Origin: Haliotis rufescens
Lineage: Eukaryota
Direction of reading: 5' to 3'
NCBI RefSeq assembly: GCF_023055435.1
Contig: NW_025963902.1
Span: 6,386,001-6,450,000, forward strand
DNA: 64,000 bases
Shown: piece by piece, positions 3,001 to 9,000 of the stretch
Layout of the letters: every line of letters starts with the position of its first letter
How positions within the stretch are numbered: position 1 is the stretch's first letter
Made by a program: the position numbers

Positions 3001-6000
3001 AGGAGACACAGAATTCATACACTGTACAGCAACCATTGGACAGACAACTCTCACACTGGTATCGGCGTGTGGATGAGCCTCGAATATCACAGCAGGATCC
3101 TGGGCCTATATGTCTCCTCTCACAGACATACCCTGAACAAAAAAAATGTCAGCATCATCTCTCAGACATACCCTGAACAAAAAACATTTCAGCATCATCT
3201 CTCAGACATACCCTGAACAAAACACATGTCATCATCATCTCTCAGACATACCCTGAACAAAACACTTGTCAGCATCATCTCTCAGACATATCCTCAACAA
3301 AAGCATGTCATCATCATCTCTCAGACATATCCTCAAGCATAGTCACATTTTACGGCAAGCATGGGTTGCTGAAGACCTGTTCTACCCCGGATCTTCACGG
3401 GTCATACTGTTGATAAAAGTTAATTACTCAGAGTCTTGATTGATATCCAAACACATGAGGGTGATACTCTATTTTTCTTCCAAAATTATTGTTCTCACAT
3501 GTCAGCTGTCGATAGACCATATATATTTTTAAGGCATGACCCCCAACCAAACCAAATATCTACCCACTGGCATATACTGATTGAAAACATTGTAATGGTC
3601 AGATAGTTGACAGAAGACTGGCCCTTAATCTATACATGACATTAAGATGACAAAGGATCATATTAGACACAATGTTTGTTGTTAAATGACGCACTCAGCA
3701 ATATTCCAGCTATATGCATGACAGGATGGCAGCTAGTAAATAATCTAATCTGGACCAGACAATCCAGTGACCGATATTATCAGCAATGTAGGGTACGAAG
3801 ACACATTATCAAGCAAGTCAAAGAGCCTGACCACCCAAAGATTTTGCCGCCTCTTACTACCAGCATGGGTTTTTGGGGAGCAATTCAATCAAGAAATCCT
3901 CATGGATCAACTTCAAGTAACCTGCCTCATGTCATAAGAACCATTTGCATGGCAAAATATCTACCTTTAATGTTTATAGATTAAATCAGACATTTTCTCA
4001 ATAGTCTGTGACAAATCATGACTGAGCTTTATTCCATAATATATCTTACAGATAGTGAAAAAGGATGAAGTTACCTCGTTCATCTACTAAAAGGTGTTTC
4101 CCCTGGACAGAATTACGACAATGTATATGACGTGTGCGGTTATTAGTCTCAGGTTCATCTGGTATCTTGGCTTGCCACTGGAATGGTTGACGCTGGGTTT
4201 TCCTAACTTTGTACTCCTCCAACACTAGATCGTCAGACTGAAAAAGCATAACATTTTTTTTTATAGATTGGTGAATCATGGGCAGCTCAGAGATAACAGT
4301 TCATCTTAAACATAAACATTGTCATTGACAGAGTACACACAGGACCACAAAGTGAGTGAGATATATCCCTTTAATCGTTAATTAAAAAGCATGTTCGTGA
4401 TATCCATCAATTAAAACAATGATAAAATATACAGCAAATGGCTGAACCGACAAACCAGTTTGTTACATCCATCAGTTTGTTATAAGCATGTACATCATAA
4501 ATGTAATTTACTACCGTATTCAACGCAATAAGCACCCAGGGCGCTCTCAAAATTAGAAATAGGGGTCTCCTATTAGAATGTTATTTTGGTGGAAGAAAAC
4601 AGAATTGAAAGATAAATTTAATTTTGTGGTTTATGCTGACAGCCTGAACTGTTTATATCCGACAGATATAATTTAATTGCCCATACGTAAGGGTGCATAT
4701 AGCACACGAGTGCATATTATACGCGAATAAATAAGTCTTGTGTACATTGATCAATCGGAAGGGGTGCTAATTGGGATTGTTCACTGGCCAATATATTAGC
4801 AAATATCGCCGTGGGCGCTTATTAGAGCGAGGCGCTTATTACATTGAAAACGGTATATGTTATCAGCAAAAATAACTGAGACTTGCATTCATGTTTCACT
4901 AAAATGTTAACTTGCGTTCCCCAAAAGCATCCCTTTGACAAAAAGCTGCATTAACAATTACAAAGCCGGAGGCTTCTAAAATATTTCTGCTTACACGGCT
5001 CAGTTCATACTAATTCATATTTGATTATAAACACATCATGCACATTAGCACTGAAATATCTAAATAATAAAGCAAGACAAGTTCAAGTTGGTCAAGGTTG
5101 GCATCCATTGTTGAAGAAGTATAATATACATTTCTTCAAATTATCTCCCTTTTTTGGTTTGTGATAAGTAATTTACACAAAATACTTATGTTATTATTAA
5201 TTTTCTTTTACTGATACAATAAGTACAACTACAAGTGCCCGCCCACAGCAATGGATGCAAATGTTTTTTGCACAACTTGCCTAGGTTATTTAGGTAACAA
5301 GGTGCCTTGGATTGCAAAAAGAAAATGGGTTATGCCGTCATCTCAACAGTTTGAAGATAGGTTATGTCGGGTTAGATAGGATTACTGTGATGACTGAACA
5401 ATAGAGTACGATGCCAAGATGAGCGATAAGTAGTCAATAGGATTAATGAGGGAAGTCAATAGGGCTAATGAGAGCAAACAATATAGACTGTTGTAATATC
5501 ATTGTGTTTGTGTAGGACATCAAACCATTTTGAAATTTGTGGTTGTTTGCATTTTTTTTACCCCCTTGAGCAGTTAATTTGAGACTGATTCACGGATTAA
5601 TTAAGTTAACACACAGTAGAATTGCATTTCGGACTAAGCGTCAGATGAAATTGCTAATGAATTCCGAAAGATGTCCTTGCGCTGCACAGGATGTGCCGTC
5701 CAGTATCATGGAGGTAGATCAAGACACCCTGATTTCCATTTGCCTACCCGTTTGACTCATCGATTTATCGTCCAGTGGAGATTTTGTCACTCGCAAACTA
5801 TTCGGAATTTTGTCTAAATGGGTTCATTGGAGTACACATTTCCGCATGAATATTTGACGTTACCTTTGAAAATGTTGCAGCAAGAAAATATATCAACGAT
5901 CCGAGGAAAATGACACCTAACACCCAGCGTTTACGCAAAACACGGGTGCCAAACATTGGTATCGCAAGGTAAACATACAAGCCTGTATGTTAGTGTCAAT

Positions 6001-9000
6001 TGTTTCGCATTATTTTGCGCATTCTAGTCAAAATAAGTATGTGGTATTTTACTATAAAGTATTTTTAAACACAAAAGAAATACTTTTATATAAAAATAAT
6101 GCGGTGTATTCCTATATTTGATTCAATATGAGTAAGGAATTTGTTTAGCTTTACTTCTACACAAGTGACACATTTGTAAAAGCTATTTCCATTGGTTTTA
6201 ATTGGAGTTTGTGATCCAATCAGAATGGCTGTACCATGAGCGTCGGGATGGATAACAGGTGTCAGAAATTTCATCGGGAAGTTACAACATACTGAAACCA
6301 TACCACCGAGTATAACTGGTACAACCATTTTACCATTTTTGTTTACAAATAAATGTTTCGAGAGTTTAAGGTTGCAGTAGTTGCGGAAATTTGTTCATAC
6401 ATGTTGACAAAACATACTGCCAAACATCAGAATCAGCCAAACAGATACCGAAATAGGCCCAGTAGGTTCTAGGCTTGTGTTTACCATTAGGCTACTGGTT
6501 TTGGCTTATGGCTATTCTAAGCAATAAGGTCTAGTCAGCATGAGAGTTAGGTTATTAATCCTTTGTACAACTTGAATGTGTCTTTTTGAGTAGAATTTGC
6601 AAAGGACAATAACTGATTCTCATCAGAGACCATATAATAGATTATATGGTCTCTGTTCTCATGTATCCAAATTATTTGTGCATGAACGTTGGTAATTTTA
6701 GAGGTGTGAAACTAGATTCAGATTTGTTTGAGTTGTTTGTTTTGCCAAGTTTGGGTACAGGATGCAATATTATAGTTTGAATATGTCTGAGTGTATACAG
6801 AAACTTTCTATCACCAGGCCTAACTCTCAATTAAATATATAATCCAATGCTCAAACAATTTTCTACCTAATTTCAGATAACCAGTACCTTCATGAAATAT
6901 CTACAATGAATGAAGACAGGTCATTGCATAATGCAAACATGGCCGACAGTAGAAGAGATTCAGGTCAAAGCTTTTCTCTTCGTCTCGGAAATCTTCAAAT
7001 GCCAATTCAAATTCAGAATCGTCTGCCTCTTGGGAGAAACATGACAAGCATGGCTCAGGGCTTCCTGCCCAATTTCCAACAATCACCACGAACAACAGGT
7101 GCACCAGCGCTGTCAGCATCAGTGATCTCGGAGCCATCAGCTGTCATTGACATGTCGTCATTGGGTGCAATAAACTCCCAGGCAACTATTCATCCTCAAC
7201 AGCACATGATGTATGCAGACAGCCATGATCATGGTCATGGACACGGGCATGGACACGGGCATGGACATGGACACGGGCATGCCCACATGGCACCGATGCA
7301 AGATGAGAACCAAAACCATAATGTAATGGCAGACAATCCGAATCCATTGAATGAGCTTCAACCGAATGACTGGAGACCGTTTCTGCTCTGGTTCCAGAAG
7401 TGTGGAATTTTCTTTGTGCTTCTCTTCATGAAACTGATGTATGACCATAGATTAGGTGAGAAAGAGGTCCTAATAACCTAATGATAGGACGTGAAATTAG
7501 ATTATTACAGTCTCACAATCTTTCTACTGAGCGATTGAACATGTTAAAAGGAGATAATTTTTAAGACCTTTAAGTGGTTTATTATCAAAGTCCTACATCT
7601 GTATTGTTCTGCTTGTGAACTTGAATAATGACACTTAACCAGCGTAATCTTTTATAACAGAGAACAACATTTAACATGTTTAACATTCAATAGTTGAAAA
7701 TGTTTCAAGAATGTTATCACAAATGACTCTTTTTTTCAGGATTACTGGTTTTCTTTGCCTTGGGTGGAACATTTTATTATGCTAATCTGAAGCTTGTACA
7801 GTTCATACATCAGACTGCAGTGAGGGTAAGTAATGGTGTTGATTTCTCTATTAACCAATGAAATGATCTTCTTTCCAAAACTTTAATGCCTTACCATGAT
7901 CATTGACATTTTCGACTGCTTCCATGAAGTAGTGGATAGAGTGTCAGCCGGGAGAGCGGAAGATTGGTAGTTTGGTCCCTACTTGTCATATTCAGCATTA
8001 GGAGGGTAAAAACAAGCACTGGTCGGTATAAGTGCATGCAAGTCGCTATATAAGTGCAATCATCTTGAATGTGACAGAGAGCCCCATTTTACCACTCCTC
8101 GCCTTATGTTGACATTTACAGCCTTAGGTGTTACAAAATGTTTTAACATTCTGATGACTTCAAGATGGAAGTTGAAGACCCTACATTCATTTTATCATGA
8201 TTGAATATTTTAGAAATTAGTTGACAAAACTGTGATCAACAGAATTTGTCCACCAATCCTAATAACCACTGTCTCAATATGGCTCTTATAGAACATTTGT
8301 CTAGTTGCCAGGCATTATTCTAGGGTGGGGCATTGTGCTTTTAGCCTTGAAAAAAGGCCCACATTTTCAAAGACAATGGGGCATTTTAACATTGTGTTGT
8401 TTGGGCATGTGTGAGTGTACCTCTGGAATATTTTCACATAAACATGATAAAGGGCCCATGTCAGAAATAGAACATTTGTCTAGTTGCCATGGTCAGTTAT
8501 AAAGGGAATGTTTACGTTTTTGATTTTGAAGTATAAGAAACTCAATGTCAAACAATTGTCATGATTATTATACACAAAAGAGTTTGTTATTAGAAATAGG
8601 TGAAATGGGGTTTAATGTCACGTCCAAGTTTATTGCACTTATAAAGCGATGTGCATGCACGTGTGTGTATGGCTCCTTGTTCTAGTCTGGACTAATGCCA
8701 ATTTTATAGTTCCAGCCCACTGAGATACCGTGCTGCAGTTTAACATAAATACCCCACCCAGGCACAGTATACTGACTCTGAGCCGACCAGTGCTTGTTTT
8801 AGCCCCTTAAGGCTGACAGGGTAACAACAAGTACCATCTATTAACGTTTTTTGGTACGACGCGACCAGGGGATCGTACCCCAGACCTTTCGCTCTTCAGG
8901 CAGACACACTGCCATTAGCATGATTAGACTATGGAGGCGGTCTTATATGATATTAGAAATGACAACTGATAATTTATTACAATGTAGATATTACTCACCA

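What the first reader, a model, noticed from the sequence alone, without database searches (positions are those of the whole stretch)
5864..7455. SPRING1 and RNFT are head-to-head, apparently the same divergent pair as human C12orf49-RNFT2
Seen: the SPRING1 ATG (5956, -) and the RNFT coding start (6906, +) are 950 bp apart, with clustered CCAAT boxes between them. Recalled: human SPRING1/C12orf49 and RNFT2 are adjacent and divergently transcribed on 12q24. Inference: a bidirectional-promoter pair kept since the bilaterian ancestor. That would hint at an undescribed co-regulatory link between the Golgi SREBP/S1P cofactor SPRING and a membrane RING E3 ligase.
Basis: partly seen in the sequence, partly recalled or inferred. 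Interest (0 to 1): 0.72.

Follow-up and report, generated by a model that had tools for sequence, protein, structure and literature searches.

The report
Abalone SPRING1–RNFT head-to-head gene pair
In this abalone genome the gene for the SREBP-pathway helper SPRING1 and the gene for the membrane ubiquitin ligase RNFT point away from each other across one small shared promoter region, an ordinary kind of conserved gene pair that is real here but is not kept in every animal that could be checked.

Summary
SPRING1 (- strand, ATG 5956, 5 coding exons, 203 aa) and RNFT (+ strand, ATG 6906, 7 coding exons, 448 aa) are intact and divergent, with their ATGs 950 bp apart. The only cluster of three CCAAT boxes in the 64-kb window (6191-6220) lies between them.

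The real gap is smaller than 950 bp. RNFT seems to have an untranslated first exon ending at 6318, which starts just right of the CCAAT cluster. That puts the two transcription starts within about 300 bp of each other. CpG observed/expected is 0.85-1.15 over 5600-6399, against 0.60 for the window.

The window matches Haliotis rufescens. In H. rubra the two proteins have consecutive RefSeq accessions on one 1.56-Mb scaffold.

The "kept since the bilaterian ancestor" claim is only partly supported:
- Papers place SPRING1 and RNFT2 in one locus in human, cattle and goat. The human orientation rests on recall.
- The pair is not adjacent in the leech Helobdella or in 3 pocilloporid corals.
- No eukaryote genome collection was available for a proper survey.

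Nothing found here links the two proteins functionally. The best reading is an NF-Y-type bidirectional promoter pair, old but breakable. It is not in the papers searched. Interest is moderate to low.

The parts
5864..5956 (-). SPRING1 coding exon 1 (ATG at 5956; signal-anchor/TM segment), 93 nt, GT donor at 5863-5862
   Evidence: 31 of 31 residues identical to P0003
4075..4237 (-). SPRING1 coding exon 2, 163 nt, AG/GT flanks
   Evidence: PF10218 E 0.0019 (18.7 bits, below the 22-bit cut-off) on the ORF piece
2981..3132 (-). SPRING1 coding exon 3 (cysteine-rich core), 152 nt
   Evidence: (PF10218 E 9.3e-14, 52.1 bits)
1447..1560 (-). SPRING1 coding exon 4, 114 nt
   Evidence: PF10218 E 3e-07, 31 bits; the donor was set by hand 6 nt inside the stretch printed
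308..397 (-). SPRING1 coding exon 5 with TGA stop at 310..308
   Evidence: PF10218 E 7.8e-4, below cut-off; 30 of 30 identical
5957..6905 (.). ATG-to-ATG interval (949 bp). Its left part, roughly 5957-6255, is the probable shared promoter.
   Evidence: CpG o/e is 0.85-1.15 in the 200-bp bins from 5600 to 6399, 0.60 for the window, and 0.14-0.20 over 6400-6799.
6191..6220 (.). Cluster of three CCAAT boxes: 6191-6195 (-), 6201-6205 (-), 6216-6220 (+). The outer two have NF-Y-like flanks (flank consensus recalled).
   Evidence: the only three-box group within 50 bp in the window
6255..6318 (+). Probable untranslated first exon of RNFT. The 5' end is not defined and could reach back to about 6225. 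GT donor at 6319.
   Evidence: The first 26 mapped residues of the H. rubra model P0001 align here (54% identity, E 0.083). A GT donor and phase-1 join to the AG acceptor at 6875-6876 reproduce P0001's junction. The frame has a stop at 6237-6239 and no in-frame ATG in the window.
6319..6876 (+). RNFT 5'UTR intron (558 nt). It contains a perfect 15+15-nt palindrome at 6624-6655.
6877..7455 (+). RNFT exon carrying the start codon (ATG 6906). It encodes a poorly conserved N-terminal region with a His-Gly repeat, then the first conserved hydrophobic segment.
   Evidence: The Met at P0001 position 37 is nearly invariant in alignment A1.
7740..7825 (+). RNFT coding exon 2
   Evidence: end set by hand at the AGG|GTAAGT donor
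9887..9996 (+). RNFT coding exon 3
   Evidence: ends set by hand at CAG| and |GTAAGT
12144..12297 (+). RNFT coding exon 4
14532..14744 (+). RNFT coding exon 5
15495..15596 (+). RNFT coding exon 6 (first half of the C3HC4 RING)
   Evidence: 34 of 34 identical to P0001; RING families at E 0.0035-0.047, all below cut-off because only half a RING is present
16795..16926 (+). RNFT coding exon 7 (second half of the RING; TAA stop at 16924-16926)

Best explanation
Two intact single-copy genes, SPRING1 and the invertebrate RNFT gene, are transcribed divergently from one compact promoter region in this abalone. RNFT is taken as the single pre-duplication counterpart of vertebrate RNFT1 and RNFT2; that duplication history is my recall.

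Shown: gene identities, exon structures, the 950-bp ATG spacing, the unique CCAAT cluster, and the local rise in CpG observed/expected.

Inferred:
- RNFT starts with an untranslated exon that ends at 6318 and begins just right of the CCAAT cluster, so the two transcription starts lie within about 300 bp.
- The oppositely oriented CCAAT boxes bind NF-Y and drive or license transcription both ways. This is described for other head-to-head pairs: Mrps12-Sarsm (PMC1802594) and PRR11-SKA2 (PMC5372550). For both I saw only the search listing and the start of the abstract.
- The pairing is inherited and not accidental. It is shared with H. rubra and, by papers plus recall, with mammals. Its most economical origin is therefore at or before the protostome-deuterostome ancestor.
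- It persists mainly because a breakpoint in so small a shared promoter would damage both genes, not because the two proteins must work together.
- It has been lost in rearranged genomes such as the leech. In pocilloporid corals it was either lost or never formed.
For: - Gene identities.
- All 12 coding exons, plus the 5' exon's donor and acceptor, have GT-AG borders, and their lengths sum to 203 and 448 codons (with a hand check).
- The CCAAT cluster is unique in the window, and 1 of 300 simulations places one in the interval.
- CpG o/e is 0.85-1.15 across 5600-6399, against 0.60 for the window and 0.14-0.20 in the adjacent intron.
- The N-terminus of the H. rubra RNFT model maps to 6255-6332 with a compatible splice phase.
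- H. rubra RNFT and SPRING have consecutive accessions on one scaffold.
- Mammalian co-location: a human GWAS locus mapping TESC, FBXW8, C12orf49 and RNFT2 (PMC9200849, passages); cattle chromosome 17 with SPRING1, RNFT2, FBXW8 and MED13L (PMC8650139, passages); goat chromosome 17, 11.98-13.13 Mb, with MED13L, HRK, SPRING1, FBXW8 and RNFT2 (PMC12686773, passages).
Against: - No transcription start is mapped, and no RNA data were available.
- The 5'-exon match is weak at the protein level (54% over 26 residues, E 0.083).
- The interval is AT-rich (26% GC over 6000-6199). It lacks GC-box, ETS, NRF1, YY1, CRE, E-box and SRE consensus matches, so it does not look like a typical vertebrate CpG-island bidirectional promoter.
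- The CCAAT statistic was chosen after the fact.
- The human head-to-head orientation is recalled and was not seen in any call.
- The pair is not adjacent in 4 of 4 non-Haliotis species that could be placed. Helobdella: scaffolds of 1,554,196 and 8,940,321 bp. Stylophora: 730,061 and 163,995 bp. P. damicornis: accessions 18,049 apart. P. verrucosa: same 20,182,140-bp scaffold, accessions 2,970 apart.
- Using accession order as a proxy for adjacency was validated on one case only.
Confidence: 0.6

Rival explanations
1. Functional coupling. The pair is kept because the membrane E3 ligase RNFT and SPRING1 act in one pathway, for example RNFT controlling turnover of SPRING, S1P or another SREBP-pathway component. 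On this view shared regulation is itself the selected feature.
For: - Both are membrane proteins of the early secretory pathway. SPRING matches the solved SPRING chain. RNFT1 is described as a partly ER-localised, XBP1s-induced RING E3 (PMC4971459, abstract and passages).
- The Atlas model of RNFT resembles the membrane parts of AMFR, HRD1-type and RNF145 ligases only at TM-score 0.49-0.55, which is a weak lead.
- Livestock papers list RNFT2 among genes tied to milk fat and cholesterol traits (PMC12686773, passages). That signal could equally belong to the neighbouring SPRING1.
Against: - Of the 4 papers holding 'RNFT2' and 'SREBP', the two opened at passages draw no link. The other two were seen only in the listing.
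- No paper holds 'RNFT2' together with 'bidirectional promoter'.
- The pair is separated in the leech and three corals, although both genes are retained. Adjacency is therefore dispensable.
- Many head-to-head pairs have unrelated functions (general knowledge).
Confidence: 0.12
2. Adjacent but independent. The genes are real neighbours, but each has its own promoter. The CCAAT cluster serves only RNFT, lying just upstream of its first exon, while SPRING1 uses AT-rich or TATA-like elements nearer its ATG.
For: - The cluster lies 235-264 bp from the SPRING1 ATG, but only about 35 bp from the first base that aligns to the RNFT 5' exon.
- A TATAAA on the - strand at 6090-6085 could set a separate SPRING1 start.
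Against: - At these distances, under about 300 bp in total, promoters normally overlap.
- Two of the boxes face SPRING1.
- The CpG-rich stretch spans both 5' ends.
- TATAAA in a 26%-GC stretch is expected by chance.
Confidence: 0.2
3. Chance or convergent adjacency. The abalone and mammalian arrangements arose independently.
For: - The pair is not adjacent in the cnidarian outgroup (3 of 3 corals) or in the one other protostome placed.
- In P. verrucosa the two genes share a chromosome-scale scaffold. Pre-existing linkage would make later chance adjacency less improbable.
Against: For two given genes among roughly 1,000-20,000, chance adjacency is of the order of 1 in 500 to 1 in 10,000, and about one adjacent pair in four is head-to-head (simple reasoning, not computed on data). 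The same outcome arising twice is much less likely than retention plus losses.
Confidence: 0.08

Closest known systems
Mammalian SPRING1 (C12orf49)-RNFT2 locus on human 12q24, cattle chromosome 17 and goat chromosome 17
   Same: The same two gene families lie side by side. Papers list them in one locus. By recall the human genes are divergent, with starts a few hundred bp apart.
   Different: - Vertebrates have two RNFT genes and the abalone has one. The gene tree follows the species tree, but no vertebrate RNFT2 sequence was in hand.
- None of the mammalian neighbours named in those papers (MED13L, HRK, FBXW8, TESC) is in this window. Its other genes are a Rab escort protein/GDI-like gene, an ankyrin-repeat gene and a C2H2 zinc-finger gene.
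- The human orientation and promoter were not checked with any tool. No human sequence was fetched.
NF-Y/CCAAT-driven bidirectional promoters: Mrps12-Sarsm (PMC1802594) and PRR11-SKA2 (PMC5372550)
   Same: A short intergenic region between divergent genes, with an array of CCAAT boxes in both orientations.
   Different: NF-Y binding and bidirectional activity were shown experimentally for those pairs (listing and start of abstract only). Here they are inferred from sequence alone. This region is AT-rich and is not a classic CpG island.
Ancient conserved head-to-head microsynteny pairs in animals (a general class; the catalogues are recalled and were not seen)
   Same: Two unrelated genes kept divergent across phyla, presumably because their regulatory DNA is interleaved.
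   Different: It is absent from the main texts searched.

Membership tests
SPRING1 / SREBP regulating gene protein (Pfam PF10218) | Match to the family profile | tested here: met
   Exon by exon: 2 of 5 pieces are above the 22-bit cut-off (52.1 and 31 bits), 2 more are at E 0.0019 and 7.8e-4 below it, and exon 1 has no match.
SPRING1 / SREBP regulating gene protein (Pfam PF10218) | Orthology to the characterised protein, and the conserved cysteine framework | tested here: met
   P0003 is identical to the window inside all 5 exons. It matches PDB 8uw8_B at E 2.9e-57. Thirteen cysteines are invariant in 24 sequences from choanoflagellate to mammals, and the window's protein has them.
SPRING1 / SREBP regulating gene protein (Pfam PF10218) | Function as an S1P cofactor needed for SREBP cleavage | not testable with these tools
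   Known for the mammalian protein (paper titles cited).
RNFT (RING finger and transmembrane domain) E3 ligases | C-terminal C3HC4 RING | tested here: met
   All RING Cys/His positions are invariant in 62 sequences. They are present in the window's exons 6 and 7. Pfam RING hits on the half-RING exon are below cut-off.
RNFT (RING finger and transmembrane domain) E3 ligases | Multi-pass membrane region before the RING, and orthology | tested here: met
   Exon 1 is 86% identical to H. rubra RNFT1-like, and exons 2-7 are 85-100% identical. There are 202 homologues at E<=1e-5, and among the 120 listed the named ones are largely RNFT1/RNFT2(-like). The tree of 62 follows the species tree. The Atlas model matches clusters named RNFT2 at TM 0.91-0.92. 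Membrane helices were not predicted directly.
Bidirectional promoter pair | Divergent orientation with no gene in between | tested here: met
   No ORF in 5957-6905 matched anything. The longest, 102 aa on the - strand, was not searched.
Bidirectional promoter pair | Transcription starts less than 1 kb apart (the usual definition; abstract of PMC3082894) | tested here: inconclusive
   The ATGs are 950 bp apart, so the starts are closer than that if there is no upstream exon beyond the partner. The inferred RNFT 5' exon brings them within about 300 bp. No start is mapped.
Bidirectional promoter pair | Shared cis elements acting in both directions, and co-expression | not testable with these tools
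   Only the CCAAT cluster and CpG profile are available. No expression data.
Microsynteny conserved since the bilaterian ancestor | Same pair adjacent in deuterostomes | tested here: inconclusive
   Same-locus listings in human, cattle and goat papers. The orientation is recalled. No invertebrate deuterostome could be checked.
Microsynteny conserved since the bilaterian ancestor | Same pair adjacent in other protostome lineages and/or outgroups | tested here: not met
   H. rubra is adjacent. Helobdella has the genes on different scaffolds. Stylophora has them on different scaffolds. In P. damicornis and P. verrucosa the accessions are far apart. That is 1 of 5 placed species adjacent, and that one is a congener.

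The most novel reading that the evidence does not exclude
The head-to-head arrangement marks a real regulatory unit of the early secretory pathway. On this reading RNFT, the ancestor of RNFT1 and RNFT2, is a membrane E3 ligase that tunes the SPRING-S1P-SREBP axis. It might do so by setting SPRING or S1P levels, with both genes switched together through NF-Y, the classic SREBP co-factor (recalled). Trait associations with milk fat, cholesterol and body size now assigned to RNFT2 in livestock and human studies would then reflect this shared promoter or SPRING1. The evidence here does not exclude this reading, but it does not support it beyond adjacency.
Probability: 0.1. Interest if true: 0.7.

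Novelty: new member of a known kind. Interest (0 to 1): 0.35.

Why it matters
SPRING1 is a recently found, essential cofactor of SREBP activation, and what controls its own expression is little studied. RNFT2 is a poorly understood membrane E3 ligase.

If the two share a promoter from molluscs to mammals, two things follow. Variants and trait associations assigned to RNFT2 may act through SPRING1. And RNFT becomes a cheap candidate to test in SREBP assays.

As it stands, the result adds one more example to the known class of old head-to-head pairs. It also shows that the pairing is dispensable in at least a leech and some corals.

Tried and rejected
- Structure-based pairing test. RNFT residues 185-480 of P0001 were run with whole SPRING P0278 (collected). 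The tool gave no verdict, so it counts neither way. The tool also did not use my alignments.
- Motif scan of 5957-6905 for GC-box, CACGTG, ETS, SRE (TCACNCCAC), YY1, NRF1, CRE and an Inr-like word. None was found. Two TATAAA words were found in an AT-rich stretch.
- The bacterial-type promoter/terminator scan does not apply to a eukaryote and was ignored.
- Rfam and ARAGORN found no RNA gene in the interval.
- Wider synteny. None of the mammalian neighbours is in the window.
- Literature. 'C12orf49'+'RNFT2' gave 4 papers and 'SPRING1'+'RNFT2' gave 4; all are locus or gene lists. 'RNFT2'+'bidirectional promoter' gave 0. 'C12orf49'+'bidirectional' gave 24, none about gene arrangement judging by title and abstract start. 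'2410131K14Rik'+'Rnft2' gave 0. 'RNFT2'+'synten' gave 2 and 'C12orf49'+'synten' gave 6, all irrelevant by title.
- I first thought RNFT might be missing from insects and crustaceans, because none is named among the 120 listed hits while SPRING is present in Culex, Glossina, Nilaparvata, Hyalella and Artemia. I dropped this. 82 of the 202 hits were not listed, and the Atlas shows RNFT2-named clusters that are mostly arthropod.
- The SPRING representatives search collapses sequences at 50% identity. It therefore gave few species that could be matched to the RNFT list. Only 5 species pairs could be placed with the 3 allowed look-ups.

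
Full report
**What is there**

The window is abalone DNA without any N.

On the - strand, five open pieces with canonical AG/GT borders make up SPRING1:
- 5956..5864, 4237..4075, 3132..2981, 1560..1447 and 397..308.
- Their lengths add to 203 codons plus a TGA stop.
- Each exon was searched on its own.
- Pfam's SPRING1 family (PF10218) is hit by 4 of the 5 pieces, 2 of them above the curated cut-off.
- The exon-3 piece finds 5 of 5 candidate proteins, all carrying PF10218. Four are named 'SREBP regulating gene protein'(-like), the best from Haliotis rufescens (P0003).
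- Inside exon borders the window is identical to P0003. It differs at 2-7 positions from the H. cracherodii, H. rubra and H. asinina proteins, so the window is H. rufescens or something very close.
- P0003 matches the solved SPRING chain 8uw8_B at E 2.9e-57.

On the + strand, RNFT has seven coding exons:
- 6877(ATG 6906)..7455, 7740..7825, 9887..9996, 12144..12297, 14532..14744, 15495..15596 and 16795..16926. This gives 448 codons.
- Exon 1 alone retrieves H. rubra 'E3 ubiquitin-protein ligase RNFT1-like' (P0001) at E 4.1e-100 and 86% identity.
- P0001 in turn finds 202 homologues at E<=1e-5. Of the 120 listed, the named ones are largely RNFT1/RNFT2(-like), from cnidarians to fishes.
- A tree of 62 of them follows the species tree, as expected for a single-copy orthologue.
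- The RING Cys/His residues are invariant in the family and present in the window.

**The interval between the genes**

CCAAT is not enriched in the window overall: 143 matches against a shuffle mean of 191. But the boxes at 6191(-), 6201(-) and 6216(+) form the only three-box group within 50 bp in 64 kb. Only 1 of 300 simulated sequences puts such a group inside 5957-6905, and this test was chosen after the fact. The outer two boxes have flanks close to the NF-Y consensus as I recall it, and they face opposite ways.

CpG observed/expected is 0.85-1.15 from 5600 to 6399. It is 0.60 for the window and 0.14-0.20 over 6400-6799. That fits an unmethylated promoter island flanked by methylated gene body, which is an inference.

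- Its first residues map to 6255-6332 (54% identity over 26 residues, E 0.083).
- A GT donor at 6319 and the AG acceptor at 6875-6876 join in a phase that reproduces the model's junction.
- In the window this frame is closed by a stop at 6237-6239 and has no in-frame ATG, so the piece is probably untranslated and 6906 stays the start. The Met there is nearly invariant across the family.
- If this exon is real, RNFT transcription begins just right of the CCAAT cluster, less than about 300 bp from the SPRING1 ATG.

The interval lacks GC-box, ETS, NRF1, YY1, CRE, E-box and SRE consensus words. It contains no Rfam or tRNA match.

**Is it the same pair as in mammals, and how old is it?**

No eukaryotic genome collection was available, so I used two proxies from the protein collection: the length of the contig that carries each protein, and accession order.

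The proxy works on the one case where the answer is known by homology to the window. H. rubra RNFT is XP_046568202.1 and H. rubra SPRING is XP_046568203.1, both on a 1,560,075-bp scaffold.

With the three allowed look-ups, four other species could be placed:

| Species | SPRING | RNFT | Result |
|---|---|---|---|
| Helobdella robusta | scaffold of 1,554,196 bp | scaffold of 8,940,321 bp | different scaffolds |
| Stylophora pistillata | scaffold of 730,061 bp | scaffold of 163,995 bp | different scaffolds |
| Pocillopora damicornis | XP_027042200.1 | XP_027060249.1 | accessions 18,049 apart |
| Pocillopora verrucosa | XP_058942698.2 | XP_058945668.1 | same 20,182,140-bp scaffold, accessions 2,970 apart |

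Which accession belongs to which Pocillopora species is my reading of the number series. So 1 of 5 placed species keeps the pair, and that one is a congener.

For mammals I have only text:
- A human GWAS locus maps TESC, FBXW8, C12orf49 and RNFT2 together (PMC9200849, passages).
- A cattle SNP on chromosome 17 lists SPRING1/C12ORF49, RNFT2, FBXW8 and MED13L (PMC8650139, passages).
- A goat interval lists MED13L, HRK, SPRING1, FBXW8 and RNFT2 (PMC12686773, passages).

None of these states orientation.

Granting that recall, independent origin of the same head-to-head pair in a gastropod and in mammals is far less likely than inheritance with losses. The leech genome is known to be heavily rearranged (recalled). 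The coral result leaves two options open. Either the adjacency arose on the bilaterian stem from two already linked genes, or it is older and was lost in that coral family.

The other genes in the window are a Rab escort protein/GDI-like gene, an ankyrin-repeat gene and a C2H2 zinc-finger gene. They are not the mammalian neighbours, so any conservation is limited to the pair itself.

**How it most likely works**

It is a compact bidirectional promoter whose core is a small array of oppositely oriented CCAAT boxes bound by NF-Y. This is the arrangement shown experimentally for Mrps12-Sarsm and PRR11-SKA2 (PMC1802594, PMC5372550; listing and start of abstract only).

The pair would persist because any breakpoint in so small a shared region harms both genes. 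This needs no functional tie between the proteins.

- Of the four papers holding both 'RNFT2' and 'SREBP', the two I opened at passages draw no link. The other two I saw only in the listing.
- RNFT1 is described only as a partly ER-localised, XBP1s-induced candidate ERAD ligase (PMC4971459, abstract and passages).
- Both genes survive apart in the leech and the corals.

**Novelty**

None of the main-text searches describes this pair as bidirectional or syntenic. Supplementary catalogues of conserved microsynteny could not be opened and may list it. The adjacency is visible to anyone who opens the public annotations.

I therefore rate it a new member of a known kind, of moderate to low interest. 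It offers one practical lead: trait signals assigned to RNFT2 may belong to SPRING1.

Noticed in passing
window 24656-32156: A 7.5-kb minisatellite with a 25-bp unit, about 295 copies and 89% matches. It explains the jump to 50-53% GC and a GC skew of about +0.37. No ORF of 90 aa or more lies in it.
   Followed up: partly
window 6624-6655: A perfect 15+15-nt palindrome with a 2-nt gap, inside the inferred RNFT 5'UTR intron. No Rfam match. Its meaning is unknown.
   Followed up: partly
window 6225-6300 and 6892-6908: There are upstream ATGs in the inferred RNFT leader: short uORFs starting at 6225, 6236 and 6248, and a 5-codon uORF from 6892 whose stop overlaps the main ATG. The H. rubra RefSeq model instead reads the upstream exon as coding and adds 36 residues. 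In this window that frame is closed by a stop.
   Followed up: partly
window 12332-12403 (+), with similar ORF translations at about 759-920, 9647-9800, 12343-12480, 13894-14050 and elsewhere: A weak tRNA-like match (30.9 bits) lies inside an RNFT intron. A family of repeated elements gives near-identical ORF translations in the introns of both genes. This is probably a tRNA-derived SINE.
   Followed up: no
window 39203-39274 (+): tRNA-Glu (CTC), 56.9 bits in Rfam and also found by ARAGORN. It could be a real gene or the head of a SINE.
   Followed up: no
window 34370-36253 (-): A 628-aa open frame with GDI (PF00996, E 2.1e-48) and RAE1/2 domain I (PF22603) domains, meaning a Rab escort protein/CHM-like gene. 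Most of it lies in one unusually long exon.
   Followed up: partly
window 45637-47247 (-) and 60981-62198 (+): A 537-aa ankyrin-repeat ORF and a C2H2 zinc-finger array with 11 fingers. Neither corresponds to a mammalian neighbour of SPRING1/RNFT2.
   Followed up: partly
protein families (no window coordinates): SPRING homologues reach beyond animals: Capsaspora, the choanoflagellate Choanoeca, and the sponge Sycon. There are 976 representative clusters at E<=0.001. SPRING is therefore older than the pairing with RNFT could be shown to be.
   Followed up: partly
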